Source of the DNA: Candidatus Poribacteria bacterium
GTDB lineage: Bacteria > Poribacteria > WGA-4E > WGA-3G
Assembly: GCA_965205015.1 (NCBI GenBank)
Contig: OZ242029.1
Location: forward strand, 864,001 to 928,000
Length of the DNA: 64,000 bases
Reading direction: 5' to 3'
The notes below the pieces were generated by a model that was not told the DNA's origin, searched no databases, and was given only the letters and a program-made list of their open reading frames with translations. Both the position numbers and the translations under genes were made by a program. Positions 1,310-34,407 of the stretch are shown here, one piece after another (position 1 is the first letter of the stretch; every line of letters begins with the position of its first letter).

Positions 1310-1387
1310 ACGCCCAGCACGAAAAATCAATTGGCATCTTTCTTGCTAAGATGATATTATAAAATGGTAGGGACCCTTGCGAACGCT

Positions 1388-2347
1388 ATGAATACACACC
1401 ACATACCCGTCTTATGTGATAAAGTCATTGATTTTCTCCGTCCAAAATCGGAGCGTGTTTACATAGATGGCACTGTGGGGTTAGGAGGGCATAGTGCTGC
1501 TATTTTAGAGACTTCCGCACCGAACGGACGCGTGATCGGAATTGATTTAGATGTTGAGGCTCTCAGTATCGCAAAAGGTAGATTACAGGTCTTCGGGGCG
1601 CGTTATTCTCTCATTAACGGCAATTTTGCTGAGATGGATGTCTTATTGGAAACCAGACACTCAGTTCACGCGGTAGACGGTATTCTGCTTGACTTAGGGG
1701 TATCTTCTCTGCAACTGGACACACCACACCGAGGTTTCAGTTTCAACCATACCGGTCCGTTAGATATGCGCATGAATCCACGGCAGGTGTTAAACAGCGA
1801 GCGAGAAGCGAGAATCCTTACAGCTATGCAGGTCGTCAACGACAGTCCAATGGATGCCCTCGTTGATATTTTTAAACGGTATGGCGAAGAACGATTCGCG
1901 AAACGGATTGCACATCGGATTATTCAGACGAGACAAAAAACACCGATAGCCACAACAACGCAACTCGCAGAGATTGCTAAGCAAGCCGTCCCCAAGAGCA
2001 GATCCAAAATTCATCCGGCAACTCGTATATTTCAGGCACTCCGCATTCATATCAACGCCGAATTGGAAAATCTCGCGATCGCTTTAGACGTTGCAATACA
2101 ACTTTTGAAACCGGGCGGTTGCCTGTGTGTCATCACATTTCATTCACTTGAAGATAGGATCGTCAAACACCATTTCCAGACCTGCGCACGGGCGTGCGTC
2201 TGTCCACCCAAAACGCCCGTCTGTATTTGTGAACACACCGCGTCTCTGGAAATTCTCACGAAGCGTCCCATAGTACCAGATGCCCTTGAAGTTGAAAATA
2301 ATCCGCGAGCACGCAGTGCTAAATTGCGCGTCGCTCGCAAGTTGTAG
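1388..2347 (+). CDS. rsmH: 16S rRNA m4C1402 methyltransferase
   Basis: HIPVL, DGTVGLGGHS, DLGVSSLQLD, RGFSF, PLDMRM, HPATRIFQALRI, FHSLEDRIVK, NPRARSAKLR. First gene of the dcw cluster. Start could be 1364. Confidence 0.95.
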   Translation: MNTHHIPVLCDKVIDFLRPKSERVYIDGTVGLGGHSAAILETSAPNGRVIGIDLDVEALSIAKGRLQVFGARYSLINGNFAEMDVLLETRHSVHAVDGILLDLGVSSLQLDTPHRGFSFNHTGPLDMRMNPRQVLNSEREARILTAMQVVNDSPMDALVDIFKRYGEERFAKRIAHRIIQTRQKTPIATTTQLAEIAKQAVPKSRSKIHPATRIFQALRIHINAELENLAIALDVAIQLLKPGGCLCVITFHSLEDRIVKHHFQTCARACVCPPKTPVCICEHTASLEILTKRPIVPDALEVENNPRARSAKLRVARKL

Positions 2348-7254: not shown

Positions 7255-8904
7255 ATGATGAGTACAGTGTTTTTCTACTTCACGCTGCTAACCTGTTTCG
7301 TAAGGGCTGTTGTCAGGACGACGCGTGGTCTCCATATGCTCCAACTCGATGGCTATAAGACGGGTCGGTACCTGAAATGGATGCCTCAGCACTTGAAGAG
7401 TTGTTTTGAAATCAAGGAGATTCTCATTATTGGTGGGCTTCTCATCTTGACCGCGTTCTATCCACAATATAACGATACGTGGTTGTTCCCTATACTGTGT
7501 TTGGCTTGGGGCGGGTTCCAAATCTATATGAGCACACAACGGAAAAAGGTAGAAGCCAAAAAACCACTCGTTTATACGGCACGCGCGAAACGGGTGTTCG
7601 GACTCTCAATCTGCTTGCTCATCGGTATCGCGACAACACTCCTGCTGATAGCACAAACAAGTCCGTGGCGTATCGCGCTCTTCCTCTTTAGCGAATTAAC
7701 TGTCCTTAATTTAACAATTGCGAATCTTCTTATCTATCCTTTGGAGCGTACCATAAATGGAGCATATCTCCTTTCAGCGAAAAAGCGAATCAAGACGCTC
7801 CAACCCAAAGTTATCGGGATTACAGGAAGTTACGGCAAGACGAGCACGAAATATATTCTACATCAGATTTTGTCTCAAAAATTTAACACGTTGATGACAC
7901 CCGACAGTTACAATACACCCATGGGTATCTGCAAAGTCATCCGCGGGGAACTTACCGCCGAACATGAGATATTTATTGTCGAAATGGGGGCTTATAAACG
8001 TGGCGACATCCGAGAGTTGTGTAATTTAGCATCCCCTCAAATCGGCATTCTCACCGCTGTTGGACCTCAGCACTTGGAACGATTCAAAAGTATAGAGAAT
8101 ATTGCCAAAACGAAATATGAGTTGATCGAGTCTCTCCCACCGGGTGGGCTCGCAGTTTTCAACTGCGACAATGAAATCTGTGCTGGACTTGCCGATAAAA
8201 GGGAGCAAACTGGAAACTCAGTGCGTCGGTACGCGACAGAACCCTTTCCTGTAACTTCGGCTGCTGAGCGTGCTGAGTTAACCGCCACGGACATTCAACA
8301 CACCGACGCAGGACTTGCTTTCAGATTACATACATCCGTCGGTACGGAAACCGAAATTCGGACCCAACTTTTGGGGAGGCATAATGTATCCAATATCCTT
8401 GCTGCAACGGCAGTTGCAATAGAATGTGGGATGACGCTTGAGGAAATTCGGGTAGCAATCGCTAATGTTGAATCCGTGCCCCACCGCTTGCAATTGACTG
8501 CCAGTGAAGGCAACGTAACCATCATTGACGATAGCTTCAACTCGAACCCAGTCGGCGCGAAAGCCGCCCTTGAAGTTCTCACGGAAATCCAAGGTGGGAA
8601 AAAAGTGTTAGTGACACCTGGAATGGTAGAACTCGGGGAAAGGGAATACGAAGAAAATAAGCGTCTCGGAGAACACGCAGCCGATGTCTGTGACCTGGTC
8701 ATTTTAGTCGGACCCAAGCGGACGACTCCGATTTTAGACGGTTTGAAAGCCGTCCAATATCCGATCCAGCAAATCATTGTCGCACTCAACTTGGAAGAAG
8801 TCAAACAACATTTAGCAACACAGGTCGGAGCCGGTGATGTCGTCCTTTTTGAAAACGACCTGCCGGATAACTACAATGAGGAACAGCAATCGGCTATCGG
8901 TTGA
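7255..8904 (+). CDS. murF: MurF-like Mur ligase with N-terminal multi-TM domain
   Basis: GITGSYGKTSTK, SYNTPMG, VEMGA, GPQHLERF, IIDDSFNSNP, TPGMVELG, C-terminal ENDLPDNY. First ~170 aa hydrophobic. Start uncertain (7249 TTG, 7255 or 7258 ATG). Confidence 0.8.
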   Translation: MMSTVFFYFTLLTCFVRAVVRTTRGLHMLQLDGYKTGRYLKWMPQHLKSCFEIKEILIIGGLLILTAFYPQYNDTWLFPILCLAWGGFQIYMSTQRKKVEAKKPLVYTARAKRVFGLSICLLIGIATTLLLIAQTSPWRIALFLFSELTVLNLTIANLLIYPLERTINGAYLLSAKKRIKTLQPKVIGITGSYGKTSTKYILHQILSQKFNTLMTPDSYNTPMGICKVIRGELTAEHEIFIVEMGAYKRGDIRELCNLASPQIGILTAVGPQHLERFKSIENIAKTKYELIESLPPGGLAVFNCDNEICAGLADKREQTGNSVRRYATEPFPVTSAAERAELTATDIQHTDAGLAFRLHTSVGTETEIRTQLLGRHNVSNILAATAVAIECGMTLEEIRVAIANVESVPHRLQLTASEGNVTIIDDSFNSNPVGAKAALEVLTEIQGGKKVLVTPGMVELGEREYEENKRLGEHAADVCDLVILVGPKRTTPILDGLKAVQYPIQQIIVALNLEEVKQHLATQVGAGDVVLFENDLPDNYNEEQQSAIG

Positions 8905-24894: not shown

Positions 24895-26591
24895 AATACC
24901 GCTGCTATATGGTCCTCTTTTTCCTTCTGAGCATACCCACTTCCGCAGAGGTCCAATTCGTTGACGTGACCGCCGCTGCAGGAATCACATTTCGGCATGT
25001 CGATGGCAGAACCGGTGAGAAGTACCTCCTCGAAACGCTCGGTTCCGGTGCACTCTTCTTCGACTTTGATGTTGATGGCGCTTTGGATCTGTATGTAGTG
25101 AATGCTACACATATCCCCCCACCCGCGAGTGAAGGGACGCCTCAGACATACATCCCCCGAAACAGACTCTACCGAAACGCCGGCAACGGAATTTTTACGG
25201 ATATGACAGATAGTGCGGGAGTCGGAGATATTGGCTATGGCGTTGGATGTGCAGCCGCCGATGTTAACAATGACGGCTATCCCGAAATCTACGTAACCAA
25301 CTATGGGCCGAATCGCCTCTATTACAACAACGGTGATGGTACCTTTACGGATGTGACGCAAAAAGCCGGAGTCGGCGATGAACGTTGGGGCACAAGTTGT
25401 GCGTTTCTGGATTACGATTTAGACGGGTATATTGACCTATACGTCGTCAATTACATGAAATTCTCCATTGCGGAGAACGAATGGTGGGAAACTCAAGGTA
25501 TTAGAACCTATTGCAGTCCGACAGATCAGATCGCCGGCAGCCACTTTGTAAGCGAGCCTGATATCCTCTATCACAACAATGGCGACGGAACCTTCACAGA
25601 TGTCACCAACACTGCGGGCATTTCACATCGTGCCCTCGGCCTCGCCGTCGCAGTCGGAGACTACAATAACGATGGTTACCCAGACCTACACATCGCCAAC
25701 GATATGGAAGCCGACCTCTTTTACCACAACAACGGCGATGGCACCTTTACCGAAACCGCTGACTTCACCGGGACAGGGTATGATGAAAACGGTTTCCCAG
25801 GAAGCGGTATGGGAAACGCATTCGGGGATTACAATAACGACGGTTACCTCGACCTCGTCGTCAGCAACGCCTCTGGACTGCCTGCCCTGCTCTATCAAAA
25901 TGAAAACGCTGCATTTTTTACCGATGTCTCTTTCGTTTCAGGAATCGGAGCAGTGACGCTCCCCGACTTTAAATGGGCGGTCGAATTCTTAGACTATGAC
26001 AACGACGGTCTCCTTGACCTCTTCGTCGCGAACGGACATCTTCAAGAGAACATCTCGCTCTTTTCAGAGGGCACCTATCCACAGATGGATTTGATGTTCC
26101 GCAACATGCGCAGACAGGACGGCACACACCATTTTACTGATGCGTCTACCCAAGTCGGATTGGCAGAACTCCCCAAAAAAGTCAGCCGCGCTGCCGCATT
26201 CGGGGACTATGACAACGACGGAGATATTGATATTTTCCTCAACAACTCCAATCAACACGCAACGCTTCTCCGAAACGAGGGTGGTAATAGCAATCACTGG
26301 TTGACAATTCAACTCATCGGTACCCGAAGCAACGCGTCCGGTATCGGTACAAAAATAGTTGTAAAAGCGGGAAATTTGTCCCTCACCAAAGAAGCACGGA
26401 GTGGTGCGAGTTACCTTTCACAAAGTGACCCCCGGGTTCATTTCGGGCTTGGGGAAAATTCAAAGGTTGATACCTTGGAGATCCACTGGCAGAGCGGGCT
26501 TACAGAGCGGTTTTCTAATCTAAAGTCAAACCAAATTCTTCGTATTAAAGAGGGACATAAGATTTTGACATACCCCAAAGGAACTGAATAG
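24891..26591 (+). CDS. CRTAC1 / ASPIC-UnbV family FG-GAP protein
   Basis: Repeated DYxNDGxxDLYV and NGDGTFTDVT; C-terminal SGASYLSQS..VHFGLG. ATGA overlap with the TPR gene stop. Confidence 0.9.
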   Translation: MKYRCYMVLFFLLSIPTSAEVQFVDVTAAAGITFRHVDGRTGEKYLLETLGSGALFFDFDVDGALDLYVVNATHIPPPASEGTPQTYIPRNRLYRNAGNGIFTDMTDSAGVGDIGYGVGCAAADVNNDGYPEIYVTNYGPNRLYYNNGDGTFTDVTQKAGVGDERWGTSCAFLDYDLDGYIDLYVVNYMKFSIAENEWWETQGIRTYCSPTDQIAGSHFVSEPDILYHNNGDGTFTDVTNTAGISHRALGLAVAVGDYNNDGYPDLHIANDMEADLFYHNNGDGTFTETADFTGTGYDENGFPGSGMGNAFGDYNNDGYLDLVVSNASGLPALLYQNENAAFFTDVSFVSGIGAVTLPDFKWAVEFLDYDNDGLLDLFVANGHLQENISLFSEGTYPQMDLMFRNMRRQDGTHHFTDASTQVGLAELPKKVSRAAAFGDYDNDGDIDIFLNNSNQHATLLRNEGGNSNHWLTIQLIGTRSNASGIGTKIVVKAGNLSLTKEARSGASYLSQSDPRVHFGLGENSKVDTLEIHWQSGLTERFSNLKSNQILRIKEGHKILTYPKGTE

Positions 26592-26800
26592 CCTTAGTTC
26601 TTTATAAATTTAACGACTTGTGTTAGCTCCCTATATGTCTTTGTTGTTTTCACAACGATTGGGTTTTGTATTATACACATATCGTCCCTACGGAACTGAA
26701 GACTGTATCTATCCATACGAAACACTGATAAAACGTTCCGCTTCTGTGAAACAATGTTTTGTGATAGACCCAAGTCTAAAGACTTGGGCTTCTGCAATCG

Positions 26801-28012
26801 TTATGCAGAAGCATTTGTGGATTTCAGAATCGGATGGTTGGATTCAACGGAGCAGCCTACGATCTTGTCAAACAAAACAATAGGACTTACAACCCCTAAG
26901 CCAAAGGAAGCTATCCCTTCCTTAAGAATGTTCAGCGCAGCGTTCTCGTCTCGGTCCAGGTGCGTATCGCAACTTGGACACCTCCAAGAACGATCTGCTA
27001 ACGTGAGGTTTTGATTTTTATGTCCACAAACACAACAGGCTTTTGTCGTCGGAGACCACCGATTGATTTTCAGCACGGAGCGAATACGCTTATGAGACTG
27101 GTGCTTGAGTTTCCGCAGGAACTCACCAAACGCAAGATCCGAGACCTGTTTCCCCCACAAGCGTTTCATACCCGCAAGGTTCAGGTCCTCAAAGAACAGT
27201 ATATCAAACTTACGACACAGTTCTATCGCCAGTTTCCAATGGTGATCTGTCCGTTGGTTCGCCGTTTTCTTGTGGATACGCGCAACGGTCTTGCGTTCCC
27301 TCTCTTGGTTGTTAGACCCTTTGACCTTGCGGGAATACGCCTTTTGGGCTTTCGCTAACTTCTCAGCGTTCTGTTTGTAGAACATCGGAGACGTATATCT
27401 ATGACCATCACTACCAATCAGAAAGTCCTTGATACCCATATCAAACCCTTCAGCTTGACCCGTCTTGGGTTCGATCTTGATTTCGGTATAGTCTTCTGTC
27501 AGCGTAATATACATATCTCCGAGGGCATCTCGTGTTACGTGAACTTCGATGATTTGTCCCTCGATTTCACGATGCAGGGCGAAGCGATACCAACGTCCAT
27601 TCAGTCGGATTTTATAGGTCGGGTGATTTCTTTGGTTTTTCTGCTTATCCAACACTTTTTCAAGTTTGACCTGTTCACCCCGAAACGTCATCCCTTTGTG
27701 TTTCTTACACGACTTGAACTTCGGGTGACCTCTGCCCAATGTTTTCATTTCACGAAAAGTTTGTGCTAACCGTTTTAGCACATTTTGCAACGCCCAAGAG
27801 TAAGGGATATTCCAATGCTGATACTTCTCAAGTTTCTTCAGTTTCGTCAAATGTTTCGACAGTTTCGCATACGAAAGTCCTTTACCATAGCGGCGGTAAT
27901 ATCGCATACAGAGTGCCAAAAAATGATTTTTCACAACGCCACAGATATTGCAATCGTCGTGCAAGTGACGCAACGTCTTATCCTTGAAAAGTTTATGTTT
28001 TGTGTTTCGCAT
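26801..28012 (-). CDS. tnpB: RNA-guided endonuclease TnpB
   Basis: RuvC I GFDMG, RuvC II FFEDL, zinc finger CCVC...CPSC, RuvC III DRDENAALNI. The D-E-D triad is intact. Confidence 0.92.
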   Translation of the reverse strand: MRNTKHKLFKDKTLRHLHDDCNICGVVKNHFLALCMRYYRRYGKGLSYAKLSKHLTKLKKLEKYQHWNIPYSWALQNVLKRLAQTFREMKTLGRGHPKFKSCKKHKGMTFRGEQVKLEKVLDKQKNQRNHPTYKIRLNGRWYRFALHREIEGQIIEVHVTRDALGDMYITLTEDYTEIKIEPKTGQAEGFDMGIKDFLIGSDGHRYTSPMFYKQNAEKLAKAQKAYSRKVKGSNNQERERKTVARIHKKTANQRTDHHWKLAIELCRKFDILFFEDLNLAGMKRLWGKQVSDLAFGEFLRKLKHQSHKRIRSVLKINRWSPTTKACCVCGHKNQNLTLADRSWRCPSCDTHLDRDENAALNILKEGIASFGLGVVSPIVLFDKIVGCSVESNHPILKSTNASA

Positions 28013-28016
28013 GGTT

Positions 28017-28106
28017 TATCAAGTCTCAAGTCTTTAACCCCTATACAGTGGGTGGGACCGACACGTAACCTTGCGGTTATGCTGTATATGTCGGTCCAAC
28101 TTGATA
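28017..28106 (-). ncRNA. Putative structured (pseudoknot) 5' leader of tnpB
   Basis: Pairings TATCAAGT/ACTTGATA, GGACCGACAT/GTGTCGGTCC, TAACC-GCAA-GGTTA, and loop ATACAG with downstream CTGTAT. Confidence 0.5.
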
Positions 28107-28111
28107 TTCTC

Positions 28112-28141
28112 ATTATATCACACTTTCGGACCAAACGTCAA
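28112..28141 (-). promoter_or_regulatory. Sigma70 promoter of tnpB inside element 1
   Basis: TTGACG-18 nt-TATAAT with TGn extension. Confidence 0.7.
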
Positions 28142-28263
28142 GCAAAAAATGAACGCTTTGGTCCTTTCCAAGAGGGCGAGACTGTATCCCAAAGCTAAAG
28201 CATTGGGTTTTCGTCTCGGAAGTTTAGATAAAAAGTTATTTAGCACCAGTCGTAGGTTTAATT

Positions 28264-28293
28264 TGACTTTATTCGCTGAAATATCGTATAATT
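28264..28293 (+). promoter_or_regulatory. Sigma70 promoter
   Basis: TTGACT-18 nt-TATAAT upstream of the poly-C ORF and the 28785 gene. Confidence 0.6.
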
Positions 28294-28784
28294 AACGTGA
28301 ATTCGACAATAAAAAGCCCTATAGACATCCGTTGCATCAATAGGAGCATCTTTATAGCATGAACACCCGACCCCTCAATACGGATTTCTCATTACAAAGT
28401 CTTGCGGTCCCGAGCTGGGATGTCCTACCATGCTTTGCTGTGTGTAATCTGCGCGCATCATCTATACGCCCTGAGATGTTACAACAAGATATAACCATCA
28501 CCCCCCCCCACTTTACGCGAGTTAAGTAAACCTTACCTAAACAACTTATTGCTGCAATGTGCACAAGGACCCTCTTCCTTCGCGCCGCGTAGTCCCCCTA
28601 ATGCCGCCCCTTGGACATTCTTCACATACAGATGTCCTCAAGGGCTATTTCTGTTCTGCAAGCATTTTTCGCAGCTGCCTGTCCGTCCTACCGGAGCATA
28701 TTCACTCCTGCTACCGCTGGCACAGGCCCCACACTCCCTCACAGGGCGAACGTGCCACAATTAGATGAATACAAAAGGAGAAAC

Positions 28785-29138
28785 ATGAGAGACAAAATTA
28801 TTTTTTTCATACTCGGTGCTTTACTCGCAACACTCGCATATTCCGCAGGTGGTATCCAACTTTCTGCTGACGATGATATAACCCTTTTTGAAAAGTTACT
28901 TGTCAAAGACCTTTTGATTACAGACTCCCTTCAAATCGGAGTCAAAGATTCAAACCTCAGAATTCTCATAAGAAAGACAGAAGATTATGCTGCCATCATC
29001 TTGCAAAATCAAGAAAACGACGAACGTATCACACTTAACGTTTCCAAAGACACTGGACCATTTATTGGGATTCGAAACAAGCATAAGAAAACGCGATTTA
29101 TGGATGCCAACAGCGTCAATCGTATACACCAAGAGTAA
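28785..29138 (+). CDS. Hypothetical secreted or membrane-anchored protein
   Basis: AAGGAG RBS then ATG. MRDKIIFFILGALLATLAYSAG is signal-like; 117 aa. Confidence 0.7.
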   Translation: MRDKIIFFILGALLATLAYSAGGIQLSADDDITLFEKLLVKDLLITDSLQIGVKDSNLRILIRKTEDYAAIILQNQENDERITLNVSKDTGPFIGIRNKHKKTRFMDANSVNRIHQE

Positions 29139-29168
29139 ACAGCAAAAATTCAGAGGTCATAAGAACCT

Positions 29169-29933
29169 TTACGTATCACTATCAGGGATCTCTGGCCAAT
29201 TGTGTTCCGGTGAATATCCTAAATCCGCTTCCGCGGGTCGCCACGCGAAACGGGAATCCGCACGACCCGCGACAGCATTATAAGAACCATACCGGACTGT
29301 CTCTGTCTCAATCGCGCGAGCAACACACTGCGCAACATCTCTCGGATCCACGTAAACGAACCAAGGATCTGTCACAATATCAGGAGCCGTCGGACCGGGA
29401 TTCTGTCCGTCGCCATCTATAACACCCGGACGGACATGAATCACGTCCAATCCATGCGCTTGATGATACGCCGCTCCGATCTGTTCACCGAGATACTTCG
29501 CCAGCGCGTAGTAAAGATCTCCCGGACCGAATTGGAAGTCATCGTCCACCTTGTAAGGCAATTCAGCACTTGGGGCAGGTGGACACGCCGAAATACTTGA
29601 GATGTTCACCAATTTTTTGACGCCTTGCTTCACACAGGCTTCCGCGACGTTCCATGTCCCTTTCACCATAACATCCGCAAATAGCGAAGCCGGTTTATCA
29701 GACCGTCCCCGTACCAGCGCAACAAGATGGACGACAGCGTCTTGATCCGTACACGCTGCCTCGATTTCAGCAGCATCCGTCACATCCGCCTTGATAAAAT
29801 TCGTGCCTGAAACCGTCCGATCCAGTTCAACAATATCAGTGAGCGTAAGGTCATACTCACCACGCAACCGATCAATGATAAACTGCGCCAGATATCCATT
29901 CGCACCCGTAATCAAAATCTTTTCAATCGACAT
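29169..29933 (-). CDS. NAD-dependent epimerase/dehydratase (extended SDR)
   Basis: ILITGANGYLA, VVHLVA, SS, YALAK (YxxxK), VDPRDVAQ. Confidence 0.88.
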   Translation of the reverse strand: MSIEKILITGANGYLAQFIIDRLRGEYDLTLTDIVELDRTVSGTNFIKADVTDAAEIEAACTDQDAVVHLVALVRGRSDKPASLFADVMVKGTWNVAEACVKQGVKKLVNISSISACPPAPSAELPYKVDDDFQFGPGDLYYALAKYLGEQIGAAYHQAHGLDVIHVRPGVIDGDGQNPGPTAPDIVTDPWFVYVDPRDVAQCVARAIETETVRYGSYNAVAGRADSRFAWRPAEADLGYSPEHNWPEIPDSDT

Positions 29934-29984
29934 TGGTTTTCCTTAAAGGTAGTAGGCACACGCCGCTGTGCCGTAACAAGGCAT

Positions 29985-30326
29985 TTACGCGAAAGAGGCT
30001 TCCGTTTCATAGAGTGTCTCATTGAAGCCAACAAAGAAAACATTTCCGCTTTGTATCGTCGGCGCCCGGAGGCTACCGCTCCGCCCCATTACCACTTTTA
30101 GGATCGATTCCTGTGTGTCTTCGGTCGGCACGAAGGTTTCCACACGCTTCCCTTTCGCAACAACGATTCGCTCCGCACTGCCCATTAAATCCCATACCGC
30201 CGTTGCATCCATTCGCTCTTTCCGGGCATCAGTCCGACTTTCTGGCTGTAATTCGTGTTCGTCAAGAAACTCTTGAACCTTTTTACACGAGGTTCAGCTA
30301 CTCCGAGAATAAATCCAATCTATCAT
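29985..30326 (-). CDS. ArsC-family (thioredoxin-fold) selenoprotein, UxxC
   Basis: ATG at 30326 gives MIDWIYSRSS-UGA-TSCKKVQEFL..., in frame with the downstream GRSGSLRAPT...VGFN ORF. A SECIS-like hairpin follows the UGA, and selA is in the window. Confidence 0.85.
30252..30290 (-). promoter_or_regulatory. Putative bacterial SECIS element
   Basis: After UGA: lower stem UCGUGU/ACACGA, upper stem UCAAGA/UCUUGA, apical loop GUU. Confidence 0.65.
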
Positions 30327-30346
30327 TTTTTAATTTTCCTTTTACC

Positions 30347-31354
30347 TTATAGGTCCCCAACGTTAATAAATCTGCCGGTATCACGACTCTGGACGGCTGC
30401 ATCAATTAGGGCGAGTGTCTCCATTGCATCGGCGAATGACGAGCGAATCAGTGTCCTGTCACCTGTTTCAATGGCACGCAACCATGCGCCGGATTTATCC
30501 AATCCCAGACTGTTTTCGGAAACCCCCGGTTCATTGACAACCTCACCGTTAAGGTATCCACGGATAACGTTATCCGTCATCTTCGCGTGCAATCGCAGAT
30601 GCGGTCCGACGACTTCAACCTCAAAACTAAATCCCTCGGTCCCACAATGATTCATGTGTGTTCCAAAAACGCCGTTGTCCAATTGATAGGTCATTTGAAT
30701 GGCATTTTCGGCATCGAATTCCGTGCGTTCTAATGCCATGTTCTTAGCGGCGAGGGCGTGTGCTTGCACCGGTTTCGGATTTCCCATTACAAAACGTGCA
30801 CAATCCAGCACATGCACCGCTTGTTCCGGCAAGGGACCCCCGCTGATCTCATATTGTAGAAACCAAGGCGACATCCGGAAACTTAGGTAATAATCAACAG
30901 TACACACCGTCCGGACGAGGTGGACCGTTTCCGAAGCGATTAACACCTTCAGTCGTTCATAGAGCGGATGGTAGCGAAGTTGGAACCCAACAGCGGAAAT
31001 GACATCCGCTTTCTCGATGCATGCAAGGCATTTTCTACCTTCAGCCATGTCCAAGGCGGGCGGTTTTTCAACCATCACAGGAATGCCGCGGTCGCACGCC
31101 ATTTGGATCGGTTCAAGACGGACAGGGGGTGGTGTCGTGATAACCACCCCGTCCATGTCCACATCGAAAAAGGCATCCAACGCCGTCGTCGCAAGTGCTG
31201 ATTCGGCATGCGCGGCGAGTTCGCGCGCTGCTTCAAGTCTCACATCATGGACGGCGACAACACGCGCACCGTAATTGGTCATCGCACCCTGATGATGCCT
31301 TCCCATACTACCAGCACCAATAATGCCTATTGCTAACGGTTTTTGAGAGCTCAT
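30347..31354 (-). CDS. Gfo/Idh/MocA family oxidoreductase
   Basis: IIGAGSMG, EKP, VGFQLRY, SGGP..EQAVHVLD. Confidence 0.9.
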   Translation of the reverse strand: MSSQKPLAIGIIGAGSMGRHHQGAMTNYGARVVAVHDVRLEAARELAAHAESALATTALDAFFDVDMDGVVITTPPPVRLEPIQMACDRGIPVMVEKPPALDMAEGRKCLACIEKADVISAVGFQLRYHPLYERLKVLIASETVHLVRTVCTVDYYLSFRMSPWFLQYEISGGPLPEQAVHVLDCARFVMGNPKPVQAHALAAKNMALERTEFDAENAIQMTYQLDNGVFGTHMNHCGTEGFSFEVEVVGPHLRLHAKMTDNVIRGYLNGEVVNEPGVSENSLGLDKSGAWLRAIETGDRTLIRSSFADAMETLALIDAAVQSRDTGRFINVGDL

Positions 31355-31360
31355 TGTATT

Positions 31361-32599
31361 GTCAAACTACCCAAGCCTAAAGACTTGGGCTTGCCTTAAA
31401 CAACAACTGTGTTGCGTTTTGCAAGCCCGCGTCTCGTGCTTCGTTGGTGTTTCTCGCTTCACAGAGAGTGGTAACCCACTGCTCTCCACGAAGGACAGTA
31501 GCTGCCCTGAGAAGTATGTTTATCGCAGCGTTGTGGTCCCAGTCTAACGAAGTGCCACAAAAACTACAGTGAAAGGTGCGTATCGCTAAAGAGAGTTTCT
31601 TTGGCGACTTCTTGCCACAAGCCAAGCATGTTTGCGAAGTGTTCTTGGGATCAACTTGGTGGAAATGCAGACCGTCTCTTTCGGCTATGTCTGCACACCA
31701 TTTAAAGAAGATACCCCAAGAGGCATCCGAAATGCTCTTGCTGAGGTGTTTATTCTTTACCATATTAGACGTGCTTAACTCCTCTGCCACTAAAACATTG
31801 TTTTCTTTATGATGATAGAGTTTATAGACGAGTTTGCCGATAAAGTCTTTGCGTTTGTTCGCGGTTCGCTCATGGTGTAAAGCGAGGGTGTGTTGGTGTT
31901 TCTTTCTTCGGTGGCTCCCTAACTTTTTACGCGATAGGTCTTTCGAGTGTTTTCGGAGCAAACCTTCTGCTTGGCGATACCAGCGCGGGTTATCTTCCTT
32001 TTCGCCTTCGGAAGTCGTTAGGTAGTGTGTCGTGCCAACATCAACAGCGACCGCAGCCCTCGGTTCAACTTTCGCAGTATCGGGGAGTTCACAGGTAATA
32101 TGAGCATACCAGCCACTTGCTTTTTTCACGAGTGTCACTTCTTTCGGATCGCCTTCAAGCGGGCGGTGCATGTATATCTTGACTTCACCCAGCTTTGGTA
32201 CTTTCAAACGGTCGTGTTTCCATGGGGTTTCTCGGATAGGATTCTCGCGAACGCGTATCGTCTGTTTTTCAGCATCTTTGGTCTTTCGACGAACCACTTT
32301 CGTATATTTGCGAAGACTCCACGTCAGAGAACGCACACGCTTTTTGTAGCGAGGATACCCTTTTTTCGCAGCGTTTTCTTTACAACGTTTGCGGAAGGCA
32401 GTAAAGGCTTTATCGTTTCTTCGCAGGGCGTGGTTTTGGAAATCTTGTGGCACTTCTCGGAAGTCATCATATTTTTCACGAGCTTGCGTGAGAAGCGTCT
32501 GCTGGTCAGAGAGCGAAACAAAGGTTTCCCCTTCCGTTCCAAGAGGGCGGTTTTTCCTCCCAAAGCTAAAGCATTGGGATTCCAAAACCGATTATTCCC
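31361..32599 (-). mobile_element. Non-autonomous IS200/IS605 element (internally deleted), element 2
   Basis: Right-end hairpin 31370-31389 with guide CAAG and end TGAC. Left-end hairpin 32559-32578, identical to element 1, with guide GAAT and target TCAA. Confidence 0.85.
31377..32585 (-). pseudogene. tnpB: N-terminally truncated TnpB
   Basis: AVDVG, VAEEL, CLAC/CSFC, DWDHNAAINI. The N-terminal region and promoter are missing, and the ORF runs into the left-end hairpin. Confidence 0.7.
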
Positions 32600-32724
32600 T
32601 TGAGATGTCCCCACGTTACCGCGAGTTTCCTTTTTATCCCCTTGCTACGGAGTAACGCTTGTCTTTTGTAGGCACAATTTTGGCATTAGCGAAATGCCCT
32701 AAACTCTGCCTACAACCGATGAGG

Positions 32725-33438
32725 TTATTCTGTCTTAATCTCTGCCCACGTTGTAGCAGCCTTCCCGTCCGGTTCAACAGCCATCGGGTCTTTGCCGCCG
32801 TAAATCTCGATTTCATCAACGCGAGCCCCGCCATTCGTGCGAATATGAAGACGTAACCACCGCGCCTCTACATCCTTGAAGGTAAACTCAGTCGTTTCAC
32901 TCACCGGATCACCCTTGTGCGTATAAACCTTCGTCCATGAGTTTGCATCGGAGTTTGGATCCGCTTTCGAGGTCGCGACCAGGATATCAAAGTCAGCAGT
33001 TGTCCTATCGAGAAACCCCTGCGAATGATCGCTACCGAAGTAGATGCGGTTCACATTGGCAACATCCCCTATATCGATCTGTGCCCAACCGGGTATCGCG
33101 CCGATGATCCAACTCCGGCAGTTGTTGTAAAAACCGTCGTTGAGGTATTCAACACAGTGTCTGCGCGGACACCATCCCTCGAGCTGCGAAGAGGCTTCCG
33201 GTTTCGCATCCTTGAGGAGTGCCAAATTGGGTTCCTTGTCCCGAACCGTCGGCACAAATTCAGGTCCCGGCTTGCCCCCAGCGTCACATTCATCTGTTGC
33301 TGCTTTTTGGTCCTGCTTCTTAAACTCGTAACGCCCGAACTTTTCAGGTCCTTGCGCTTCGTCATGCACTGCAAAGACAGTAAACGTGCTTATGAGCATC
33401 ACTGCTATCACAAGCCACCAATACTTCGTCCATCTCAT
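32725..33438 (-). CDS. Secreted discoidin / F5-8-type (galactose-binding fold) protein
   Basis: GGAGG RBS, signal peptide, NLAL...ASS...LNDG, WAQIDIG, ARWLRL...EIEIY, C-terminal AVEPDGKAATTWAEIK. Confidence 0.75.
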   Translation of the reverse strand: MRWTKYWWLVIAVMLISTFTVFAVHDEAQGPEKFGRYEFKKQDQKAATDECDAGGKPGPEFVPTVRDKEPNLALLKDAKPEASSQLEGWCPRRHCVEYLNDGFYNNCRSWIIGAIPGWAQIDIGDVANVNRIYFGSDHSQGFLDRTTADFDILVATSKADPNSDANSWTKVYTHKGDPVSETTEFTFKDVEARWLRLHIRTNGGARVDEIEIYGGKDPMAVEPDGKAATTWAEIKTE

Positions 33439-33585
33439 TGTAGATTCCTCCGTTTTCAAGGTAGTCTTTAACATCATATTAGCACAAGTGAAAAATTGTT
33501 TCAAGAAAACGGTTATCTCTTGACTTTTTTTTTCTCTGTTGCTATCTTAAGATTGTATTCACCGTTTAGACATTTTCAATTTTTG

Positions 33586-33614
33586 TTGACACCTGTAAAG
33601 ATGTCGCTTATAAT
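33586..33614 (+). promoter_or_regulatory. Consensus sigma70 promoter
   Basis: TTGACA-17 nt-TATAAT. Confidence 0.8.
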
Positions 33615-33635
33615 TCTACCGTAAAGGATCGAAAT

Positions 33636-34385
33636 TTGAAACAGCATGCTATTTTTTGGTTATTCCCTCTCACTTTGATATACGTTTCAGCAGTTTGCGA
33701 TGCCCAAGAGTTGGTGCTGCATCTCTCTTTTGAGGCGTTAGATGGAAAGGTTGCAAAGGACCGTTCGGAATTTGGTAACGATGCAACCTTCAAAGGTTCT
33801 CCAAAACTCATTGAAGGTGTTTTCGGAAAAGCATTGGAGTTCGACGGAAAAACTTCCGGACAAATTCCCGATCATGCCAGCCTTGATATTGTCGATGGCA
33901 TCACCATCGAATTCTGGGCGATTGTCAAAGGGGGTGAGGCAATCCAGAGCGGTGTCGAAAAAGGCGTCGCTTGGGTTTCTGGCTTGTATAATCTCGCAGC
34001 GCTTTACAACGGCGGAACAATCCTTCAATTTTTTGACTTACCAGATGCCTGTAACGATGAGAACATCGGTCCCAGTATTCAGGATGACGAGTGGCATTTT
34101 CTCGCAGGAACATGGGACGGAAAAACAATTCTGCTCTACATCGACGGCGAACTGGAAGCGGAAATGGCGTGTAAAGGTGAACTAACGCCGAACAACGATC
34201 CCCTCTTCATCGGCGCACGTGGCGGAAGTGGACGCTTTCTCACCGGAGCCTTGGATGAAATCAAAATGTATAATTACGCCTTAACCCAAGAGGAACTGCT
34301 TAAGGATATGGAGGCACCTGTTACGTTGCCTGTCAACGTACAGGATCAATTGACTACCGTCTGGGCACGCCTCAAAACCGACTAA
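33636..34385 (+). CDS. Secreted LamG-like jellyroll protein
   Basis: LHLSFE, GVFGKALEFDG, WHFLAGTWDG, LYIDG, GALDEIKMYN, C-terminal PVNVQDQLTTVWARLK. Confidence 0.85.
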   Translation: MKQHAIFWLFPLTLIYVSAVCDAQELVLHLSFEALDGKVAKDRSEFGNDATFKGSPKLIEGVFGKALEFDGKTSGQIPDHASLDIVDGITIEFWAIVKGGEAIQSGVEKGVAWVSGLYNLAALYNGGTILQFFDLPDACNDENIGPSIQDDEWHFLAGTWDGKTILLYIDGELEAEMACKGELTPNNDPLFIGARGGSGRFLTGALDEIKMYNYALTQEELLKDMEAPVTLPVNVQDQLTTVWARLKTD

Positions 34386-34407
34386 TCATCGCAACACAGG
34401 AGGTTTG

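What the first reader, a model, noticed from the sequence alone, without database searches (positions are those of the whole stretch)
26761..32603. Two tnpB elements with shared hairpins but different guides and targets: four-way covariation fixes their ends
Seen (minus strand): both left ends carry the identical hairpin CCCAATGCTTTAGCTTTGGG, and both right ends carry CCCAAGTCTTTAG(A/G)CTTGGG. The tetranucleotide 5' of each hairpin varies with the inferred cut site. Element 1: left AAAA/TTAT, right GAAG/TCAC. Element 2: left GAAT/TCAA, right CAAG/TGAC. An outer stem also covaries (CGAGAC/GTCTCG versus CGGTTTT/AAAACCG). Knowledge: in IS608, guide/cleavage pairs are AAAG/TTAC and GAAT/TCAA (guide positions 1, 2, 4 pair with site positions 2, 1, 4), and all four pairs here obey this rule. 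Inference: one trans-acting TnpA mobilises elements naturally retargeted to different sites and carrying very divergent TnpBs, whose TAMs should end TTAT and TCAA.
Basis: partly seen in the sequence, partly recalled or inferred. Interest (0 to 1): 0.7.

Follow-up and report, generated by a model that had tools for sequence, protein, structure and literature searches.

The report
Two retargeted tnpB insertion elements
Two small transposase-less mobile elements in a sponge-symbiont genome share the same end hairpins but carry different built-in DNA guides and so insert at different four-base sites, a real but already described kind of behaviour.

Summary
On the minus strand there are two tnpA-less IS200/IS605-type elements: element 1 at 26761-28227 with an intact tnpB, and element 2 at 31361-32599 with a 5'-truncated tnpB. 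Both share the end hairpins.

- **Element 2 ends:** proven. 8 of 10 orthologous loci from related genomes join 31360 directly to 32600, keeping one TCAA and showing no duplication.
- **Element 1 ends:** rest on copies with unlike flanks, plus an exact empty site for a sister element with the same left-end architecture (7 of 7 loci). Element 1 itself has no empty allele, because it lies inside a 2.6 kb strain-specific insert.
- **The pairing rule:** holds for 66 of 85 hairpin occurrences in related loci, against a mean of 23 with permuted guides. At least ten guide/site classes are present.
- **tnpA:** none in the window. Related genomes carry tnpA elements with the identical hairpin.
- **Untested:** a single TnpA, and the predicted TAMs.

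The same phenomenon is published for Geobacillus ISGst elements, so this is a new member of a known kind.

Seen in passing: a strongly covarying pseudoknotted leader upstream of tnpB that has no Rfam match.

The parts
26761..28227 (-). Element 1, 1467 nt: a tnpA-less IS200/IS605-type element with an intact tnpB
   Evidence: A locus from a related genome (L054) aligns at 80.6% over 26758-28231. The right-end junction TCAC| is followed by unlike flanks in 5 copies. A contig from run X20 diverges at 26760.
28228..28231 (-). TTAT: target and left cleavage site of element 1, lying in the flank; also the predicted TAM
   Evidence: It pairs with guide AAAA by the rule. 16 AAAA-guide and 1 AAGA-guide left ends in the family have TTAT at 18-21 nt. 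Exact empty sites for the sister element in L033 confirm the junction type.
28177..28218 (-). Left-end structure of element 1: outer stem 28213-28218 with 28177-28182, guide AAAA 28208-28211, hairpin 28188-28207
28112..28141 (-). Sigma-70-like promoter, TTGACG-18-TATAAT with a TG extension
   Evidence: 11 of 12 consensus matches. This is a consensus match only.
28017..28106 (-). Pseudoknotted leader between the promoter and the tnpB start codon
   Evidence: Alignment A3. Five related genomes hold 22-34 copies each. No Rfam match.
26801..28012 (-). tnpB of element 1, 403 aa
   Evidence: Pfam OrfB_IS605 at 3.3e-18 and Cas12f1-like_TNB at 3.2e-17. It matches ISDra2 TnpB structures at E 1.1e-48 over residues 26-372, with aligned D, E, D and CxxC..CxxC motifs.
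26761..26792 (-). Right end of element 1: guide GAAG 26789-26792, hairpin 26769-26788, cleavage site TCAC 26761-26764
26761..26990 (-). Structured 3' region of element 1, where a TnpB guide RNA (omega RNA) scaffold is expected
   Evidence: The consensus fold of 4 copies has 60 predicted pairs, 8 of them with double changes. This is weak evidence and no RNA data exist.
31361..32599 (-). Element 2, 1239 nt: a tnpA-less element with a 5'-truncated tnpB
   Evidence: It is absent, with an exact junction, in 8 of 10 orthologous loci.
32600..32603 (-). TCAA: target and left cleavage site of element 2, lying in the flank
   Evidence: It is kept once in the empty sites. Five copies with unlike flanks all have TCAA.
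32548..32590 (-). Left-end structure of element 2: outer stem 32584-32590 with 32548-32554, guide GAAT 32579-32582, hairpin 32559-32578
31377..32520 (-). tnpB remnant of element 2. The frame is open to 32585, but TnpB homology starts near 32520
   Evidence: Pfam. Full-length relatives L083, L092 and L021 carry about 330 nt more between the left end and this point. It is 85.2% identical to the L092 TnpB.
31361..31393 (-). Right end of element 2: guide CAAG 31390-31393, hairpin 31370-31389, cleavage site TGAC 31361-31364
26558..29158 (.). Strain-specific 2.6 kb insert that contains element 1
   Evidence: A contig of run X1 has 21 other letters here instead. Four related loci have 33-47 nt here and four have unrelated inserts of 701-2406 nt. 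The part at 28232-29158 has no homologue in 111 genomes.

Best explanation
Both features are non-autonomous IS200/IS605-family elements of the tnpB-only kind, in a Candidatus Poribacteria genome.

**How they work**
- Each end folds, as single-stranded top-strand DNA, into a hairpin that a Y1 (HUH) TnpA transposase binds.
- The four bases 5' of each hairpin foot act as a DNA guide that pairs with the cleavage tetranucleotide. Guide base 1 pairs with site base 2, guide base 2 with site base 1, and guide base 4 with site base 4.
- At the left end the cleavage site lies in the flank, 20-21 nt upstream. It is also the insertion target.
- At the right end the site forms the last four bases of the element.
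- A TnpA supplied in trans would excise the strand as a circle, reseal the donor, and insert 3' of TTAT (element 1) or TCAA (element 2) without duplication.
- Element 1's intact TnpB, guided by an RNA running across the right end, would cut the resealed donor (TAM TTAT plus flank) and restore the element by recombination.
- Element 2 has lost its tnpB promoter, leader and N-terminus. It is a passenger that can still be moved.

**Shown:** the anatomy, the exact ends of element 2, and the family-wide covariation of guide and site.

**Inferred from published work on IS608 and Geobacillus elements:** TnpA action, a trans supply, and TnpB homing with its TAMs.
For: - The hairpins are unique to these four places in the window.
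- Both ORFs are TnpB.
- Eight related genomes join 31360 to 32600 exactly, keeping one TCAA.
- A sister element with the same left-end layout (AAAA guide, TTAT 20 nt upstream) is absent in 7 of 7 orthologous loci, with junction GGTTTAT|AATTCTGG.
- The rule fits 66 of 85 hairpin occurrences, at 16-22 nt for left ends and 8-10 nt for right ends. With permuted guides the mean is 23.3 and the maximum 37 in 1000 permutations. The fits peak at those offsets only.
- All four Watson-Crick combinations are seen at guide 4/site 4, and three at guide 1/site 2. Left-end classes are AAAA/TTAT, AAAG/TTAC, GAAT/TCAA, GAAA/TCAT, CAAT/TGAA and GAAG/TCAC. Right-end classes are CAAG/TGAC, GAAG/TCAC, GAAT/TCAA, GAAC/TCAG and GAAA/TCAT.
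- Related genomes carry tnpA genes about 100 nt downstream of the identical left-end hairpin (L121, L124, L091).
- The published mechanism and a published precedent were read as passages: PMC3201880 and 10.1101/2023.03.14.532601.
Against: - There is no tnpA in the 64 kb window (best tblastn E 0.12). The rest of the genome could not be searched.
- No empty allele of element 1 itself was found.
- 19 of 85 hairpin occurrences do not fit the rule. At least four of these are in Poribacteria loci (L039 with TGAT, L024 with TCAC, L063 and L046). Most of the others that have a title lie in other phyla.
- Guide base 2/site base 1 never varies, so that pair has no covariation support.
- Site-to-hairpin spacing varies between 17 and 21 nt at left ends.
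- There is no RNA evidence for a guide RNA, and Rfam gives no match.
- Element 2's tnpB is truncated.
Confidence: 0.85

Rival explanations
1. The anatomy is the same, but several different TnpA proteins serve the elements, for instance one per clade, rather than one shared enzyme.
For: Each of 5 related genomes has 3-10 matches to the Y1 transposase family. At least three tnpA lineages, 47-75% identical or less, sit next to hairpins of this type: L121/L124/L095, L091, and L123/L126/L130.
Against: The two left-end hairpins in the window are identical base for base, and the right-end hairpins differ by one base. Published work says TnpA reads the hairpin, not the cleavage site (PMC3201880). One enzyme would therefore suffice.
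Confidence: 0.3
2. Both elements are immobile relics in this genome. The guide/site match is inherited from active ancestors and nothing moves them now.
For: There is no tnpA in the window. Element 2 is decayed at its 5' cargo and has a short deletion in its 3' region compared with relatives. Element 2 sits at the same site in the contigs of three runs.
Against: All four ends are intact and obey the rule. Element 2 is absent from the closest related species, at 85-90% DNA identity, so the insertion is recent. Element 1's tnpB is intact.
Confidence: 0.15
3. The four guide/site matches are chance, picked by eye from nearby tetranucleotides.
For: Each offset has about a 1 in 64 chance of fitting, and spacing was allowed to differ by one base.
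Against: The element 2 sites coincide with the junctions found independently from empty sites. Family-wide fits peak only at the expected offsets and far exceed permuted guides.
Confidence: 0.01

Closest known systems
IS608 of Helicobacter pylori (IS200/IS605 family)
   Same: It has subterminal hairpins and 4-nt guides 5' of the hairpin foot. The left cleavage site lies in the flank and doubles as the target, while the right site lies inside the element. Its pairs AAAG/TTAC and GAAT/TCAA both occur in this family. The two bases 3' of the hairpin are AT with A-first guides and AG with most G-first guides, as in IS608 (PMC3201880).
   Different: The window elements have no tnpA. Left-end spacing is 20-21 nt here against 19 in IS608, and right-end spacing 8-9 nt against 10. 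A covarying outer stem encloses guide and hairpin. The targets are TTAT and TCAA.
ISGst1-5 elements of Geobacillus stearothermophilus (Meers et al., preprint 10.1101/2023.03.14.532601, passages only)
   Same: There are many tnpA-less tnpB elements sharing similar ends. They have clade-specific TAM and TEM motifs with covarying DNA guides. Mobilisation in trans by TnpA is proposed and was shown for mini-elements.
   Different: This case is in another phylum and has more guide/site classes (at least ten). Nothing here was tested at the bench.
ISDra2 TnpB (PDB 8bf8, 8exa, 8h1j)
   Same: It is 408 aa against 403 aa here and matches at E 1.1e-48 over nearly the full length. The RuvC D, E, D positions and the zinc-finger cysteines align.
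   Different: About a third of residues are shared. Its TAM is TTGAT (recalled, not checked here), against the predicted TTAT.
Palindrome-associated transposable elements (short cargo-less IS200/IS605 derivatives)
   Same: Related loci hold 573-673 nt elements with the same ends and no ORF (L017, L033, L094, L111, L037).
   Different: The two window elements still carry tnpB or a tnpB remnant.

Membership tests
IS200/IS605 family insertion sequence | Subterminal hairpins at both ends and no terminal inverted repeats | tested here: met
IS200/IS605 family insertion sequence | A guide tetranucleotide 5' of each hairpin foot, complementary to the cleavage tetranucleotide (in the left flank; at the right terminus) | tested here: met
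   All four ends fit. In the family, 66 of 85 occurrences fit, against a mean of 23.3 with permuted guides.
IS200/IS605 family insertion sequence | Insertion 3' of the target tetranucleotide with no target-site duplication | tested here: met
   Element 2: 8 of 10 orthologous loci are exact empty sites with a single TCAA. Sister element L033: 7 of 7. For element 1 itself the test is inconclusive, as no empty allele was found.
IS200/IS605 family insertion sequence | Encodes a Y1 (HUH) TnpA transposase | tested here: not met
   There is no tnpA in either element or anywhere in the window. They are therefore filed as non-autonomous derivatives. Related genomes have tnpA next to the same hairpin.
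IS200/IS605 family insertion sequence | Single-strand excision and integration by TnpA | not testable with these tools
   This needs an excision assay.
TnpB (OMEGA) RNA-guided nuclease | RuvC-like domain with the D, E, D triad and a zinc-finger insertion | tested here: met
   Element 1. Element 2 keeps these motifs but lacks the N-terminal 45-50 residues.
TnpB (OMEGA) RNA-guided nuclease | A guide RNA that overlaps the 3' end of tnpB and runs across the right end | tested here: inconclusive
   The 3' regions are structured and have some compensatory changes. There is no Rfam match and no RNA data.
TnpB (OMEGA) RNA-guided nuclease | The TAM equals the transposon's target motif | not testable with these tools
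   TTAT is predicted for element 1. This needs a TAM depletion assay.

The most novel reading that the evidence does not exclude
The left-end module of this Poribacteria family holds two parts that I could not find described.

- **A covarying 6-7 bp outer stem.** It closes the DNA guide and the TnpA hairpin into one two-tier structure.
- **A roughly 90-nt pseudoknotted 5' leader.** It lies between the element's promoter and the tnpB start codon. Its 5' arm can pair with either of two tandem 7-mers just upstream of the ATG.

The leader would be a new cis-regulatory RNA that switches tnpB translation or stability. It is shared by TnpB clades that are only 25-41% identical.

In addition, close TnpB relatives (70-77% identical) sit in elements whose targets differ at one base, TCAA versus TCAC. 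This offers a natural series for mapping how TAM choice is determined.
Probability: 0.4. Interest if true: 0.6.

Novelty: new member of a known kind. Interest (0 to 1): 0.4.

Why it matters
The window is a clean natural example of how single-strand transposons change their target by changing a four-base DNA guide. The exact ends are verified against empty sites in sister species.

The surrounding family has tens of copies per genome and at least ten guide/site classes built on one hairpin type. It is therefore a ready-made natural mutagenesis series for three questions:
- the pairing rules of TnpA, including the bases 3' of the hairpin that earlier work predicted would limit spontaneous retargeting;
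- the co-evolution of TnpB TAM preference with transposon target choice;
- sourcing compact nucleases with different TAMs.

The principle itself is already published.

Tried and rejected
**Whole genome of the window.** None is held. The search for a tnpA flanked by the hairpins in the same genome could not be done.

**Empty allele of element 1.** It was sought in four ways, without success.
- Contigs of four runs were laid on the region. Run X1 has 21 other letters in place of 26558-29158, which is a larger difference and not an excision. The short joints 26697>28231 and 26702>28230 have only 23-24 letters on one side and unknown letters between, so I do not read them as empty sites.
- Synteny in 8 related loci shows that the whole 2.6 kb is absent or replaced.
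- A search with the flank 28232-29158 in 111 genomes gave only 70-110 nt weak hits in 3 genomes.
- Two exact-word scans of metagenome contigs, one with each flank, gave 0 hits.

**Empty site for the closest copy of element 1 (L054).** Its flanks are pieces of a repeated transposase-like gene. The five paralogues examined have about 90 nt more at the junction, so no clean comparison was possible.

**Window 1311-1402 as an empty site for an element in L076.** This is plausible, with insertion after TCAC. The intergenic alignment at 72-80% identity is too loose to fix the junction.

**Rfam.** There was no match at E up to 1 over 26400-32800, nor at E up to 10 over 27980-28240.

**Depth of contigs over the elements.** It is higher than over the flanks but is not a copy number, so I did not use it.

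**Supplementary files.** The alignments of ends and guides in the supplementary and extended-data figures of the Geobacillus paper may bear on how new the outer stem and the 3' dinucleotide pattern are. I saw only the figure legends as passages.

**Searches for print on the leader.** One search was run (terms tnpB, UTR, pseudoknot, IS605, 'upstream of tnpB'). It listed four papers, none on a 5' leader by title or abstract start. This does not show that the leader is unpublished.

Full report
**What is there**

The minus strand of 26500-32900 shows two units with the same layout:
- a flank tetranucleotide;
- about 20 nt that include the 5' arm of an outer stem;
- a four-base guide;
- the hairpin CCCAATGCTTTAGCTTTGGG;
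- the 3' arm of the outer stem;
- cargo;
- a second guide;
- the hairpin CCCAAGTCTTTAG(A/G)CTTGGG;
- 8-9 nt ending in a second tetranucleotide.

The left hairpin occurs exactly twice in the 64 kb window and the right hairpin twice. None is expected by chance. The left hairpin has a T-T mismatch in its stem. The right one is perfect in element 1 and has a G-T pair in element 2; this is read from the sequence.

Both cargos are TnpB genes by Pfam. They are 32% identical over 225 residues.

**The organism**

No genome is held for the window. Many are titled Candidatus Poribacteria. The run that holds 0.58 of the sampled words is labelled a sponge metagenome, and it was laid on the region.

**Ends of element 2**

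I searched 111 genomes of the family with the flank 32604-34400 and compared ten returned loci with the window.
- In eight loci (L132, L134-L140), window base 31360 is followed directly by base 32600. The junction reads ...CTCAA|AATACAATGA... on the minus strand.
- One locus (L131) has both flanks with a different 233-nt spacer.
- One locus (L133) has no match on the far side.

Element 2 is therefore 31361-32599. The insertion lies 6 nt upstream of the start codon (31354) of a Gfo/Idh/MocA oxidoreductase gene.

**Ends of element 1**

The same approach failed here because the flanks are not ancestral.
- Four related loci have only 33-47 nt between the FG-GAP gene and the epimerase gene.
- Four others have unrelated inserts of 701-2406 nt.
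- A contig of run X1 has 21 letters in place of 26558-29158.
- The flank 28232-29158 has no homologue in 111 genomes.
- Two metagenome scans found nothing.

The ends therefore rest on three other lines of evidence:
- A full-length copy in L054 aligns at 80.6% over 26758-28231 and carries the same end classes.
- Five copies of the right end have unlike sequence after TCTATCAC or TTTATCAC. A contig in run X20 diverges at 26760.
- A 589-nt sister element, L033:3430-4018, has the same left-end layout: TTAT, then 20 nt, then guide AAAA. It is absent in 7 of 7 orthologous loci, with junction GGTTTAT|AATTCTGG.

**The pairing rule**

I took 85 hairpin occurrences that had full flanks. The exclusions are listed under Tried and rejected. 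For each, I asked at which offsets a tetranucleotide fits the guide, using guide base 1 with site base 2, guide 2 with site 1, and guide 4 with site 4.
- Fits pile up at 17-21 nt upstream and at 8-10 nt downstream, and nowhere else.
- 66 of 85 occurrences fit in those ranges. With guides permuted among occurrences, the mean is 23.3 and the maximum 37 in 1000 permutations.
- Left-end classes are AAAA/TTAT (16), AAAG/TTAC (3), AAGA/TTAT (1), CAAT/TGAA (10), GAAT/TCAA (3) and GAAA/TCAT (2). A wider hairpin pattern adds GAAG/TCAC and GAGA/TCAT.
- Right-end classes are CAAG/TGAC (15), GAAG/TCAC (5), GAAT/TCAA (4), GAAA/TCAT (2) and GAAC/TCAG (1).
- Site base 1 is always T and guide base 2 always A, so that pair is not tested by covariation.
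- Of the 19 misfits, several lie in other phyla by title. At least four are Poribacteria copies. Two of those have a single changed base in the site (L039 TGAT, L024 TCAC).

That paper also reports base triplets between the first two guide bases and the two bases 3' of the hairpin. It argues that spontaneous retargeting should be limited by them.

In the listing those two bases are:
- AT with A-first guides;
- AG with G-first guides, except the right-end class GAAG, which has TC or TT;
- TC or TA with C-first guides, apart from single copies such as L052 (TG).

This pattern was read by eye from that listing and was not separately tested.

**The outer stem**

Among 35 distinct ends, including some right ends that lack it, the left ends show a 6-7 bp stem. 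It starts 0-1 nt before the guide and resumes 4-5 nt after the hairpin. At least ten different arm sequences occur, among them CGAGAC, CGGTTCT, CGGTGTC, CCGTGTC, CGGTTTT, CGGAAT, CCGTTTC and CCGTTC. Cognate arms pair better than non-cognate arms: the mean run is 5.5, against 4.4 for non-cognate pairs, with a maximum of 4.8 in 200 shuffles. I did not find this stem in the passages I read. Its role is unknown.

**Transposase**

tblastn with seven TnpA proteins from related loci found nothing in the window; the best E-value was 0.12. All 5 related genomes searched have 3-10 Y1 transposase matches. In L121 and L124 the tnpA lies about 100 nt after a left end with the identical hairpin and the pair CAAT/TGAA. 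L095, L091 and L123/L126/L130 carry other tnpA lineages with near-identical hairpins. Supply in trans is therefore plausible. A single enzyme is not shown.

**Cargo**

Element 1's TnpB (403 aa) matches the ISDra2 TnpB structures at E 1.1e-48 over residues 26-372. The aspartate, glutamate, aspartate and zinc-finger cysteines align.

Element 2 has lost about 330 nt after the left end. That stretch comprised the promoter, the leader, the start codon and about 45-50 codons, as seen by comparison with L083, L092 and L021. It also has a short deletion in its 3' region.

TnpB clades track the left-end target:
- Element 1 and L054 (84.8% identical) use TTAT.
- Element 2 and L092 (85.2%) use TCAA.
- L008 and L069, which are 70-77% identical to element 2, use TCAC.
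- L052 and L056 (65% identical to each other) use TCAT.

The 3' regions fold into conserved stems with some compensatory changes. This fits a guide RNA scaffold but does not show one.

**Comparison with what is known**

The Geobacillus study reports 47 elements in five families with similar ends. It describes clade-specific TAM and TEM motifs that covary with DNA guides, excision that depends on cognate TAM-guide pairing, and nearly 50 tnpA-less elements predicted to move in trans (10.1101/2023.03.14.532601, passages). The window is a further example in another phylum, with more classes. It is a new member of a known kind.

**Seen in passing: the leader**

A promoter-like site lies at 28141-28112. 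Between it and the tnpB start at 28012 lies a leader shared by 14 elements from different TnpB clades (alignment A3).

It has four helices. One of them forms a pseudoknot. The outermost helix has two alternative 3' partners, which are tandem 7-mers next to the ATG.
- 94.8-95.6% of cells pair, against 24-42% when the partners are slid.
- 18 of 28 pairs show changes on both sides.
- The covariation score is 0.50, against 0.19 for shuffles, with 0 of 500 shuffles reaching it.

A covariance model built from A3 finds 22-34 copies in each of five related genomes. Rfam has no match. The structure lies on the strand that is both the mRNA sense strand and the transposed strand, so either an RNA role or a single-stranded DNA role is possible. 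I favour an RNA leader because of its position.

**Verdict**

Element 2's ends are proven and element 1's are well supported. A single TnpA and the TAMs remain inferences. The principle is published, so interest is moderate. The leader and the outer stem are the parts most worth a further look.

Noticed in passing
window 28017-28106 (minus strand); alignment A3 of 14 loci: A pseudoknotted leader lies between a promoter-like site and the tnpB start codon. It has two alternative 7-mer partners next to the ATG and is shared by TnpB clades only 25-41% identical. Covariation is strong. Five related genomes hold 22-34 copies each, and there is no Rfam match. The leader is deleted in element 2.
   Followed up: partly
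window 28177-28218 and 32548-32590 (minus strand); left ends in loci: A 6-7 bp outer stem encloses the DNA guide and the TnpA hairpin at left ends. At least ten compensatory variants occur across the family. Right ends and the CAAT/TGAA left ends lack it.
   Followed up: partly
window 26558-29158: The intergenic spot between the convergent FG-GAP and epimerase genes is variable. The window has a 2.6 kb insert here, made up of element 1, about 1.1 kb of orphan sequence, and a small ORF with a signal-peptide-like start on the plus strand near 28787-29138. Relatives have 33-47 nt here or unrelated inserts of 701-2406 nt. One of those inserts carries a family hairpin and others carry methyltransferase-like frames.
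   Followed up: partly
window 31354-31364: Element 2 is inserted 6 nt upstream of the start codon of the Gfo/Idh/MocA gene. That gene is now separated from its former upstream region and may depend on read-through from the element.
   Followed up: no
window 1311-1402 versus L076:2560-4060: A related genome has a 1.5 kb tnpB element where the window has none. It has a different left hairpin and a probable GAGG/TCAC guide pair. The window has TCAA at the matching position.
   Followed up: partly
L017, L033, L094, L111, L037: Short cargo-less derivatives of 573-673 nt carry the same ends. The L033 copy is absent in 7 of 7 orthologous loci.
   Followed up: yes
the two bases 3' of each hairpin, window and loci: This dinucleotide follows the first guide base. 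It is AT with A, AG with G (except the right-end class GAAG, which has TC or TT), and TC or TA with C. It matches the triplet-forming positions reported for IS608 (PMC3201880).
   Followed up: partly
flanks 5' of TTAT in 16 left ends: The base before TTAT is T in 12 copies, A in 3 and G in 1. The effective target or TAM may therefore be five bases long.
   Followed up: no
L054:6100-6383 and 7858-8000: The closest copy of element 1 sits inside a fragment of a repeated Y1-transposase-like gene. Paralogues have about 90 nt more at the junction.
   Followed up: partly
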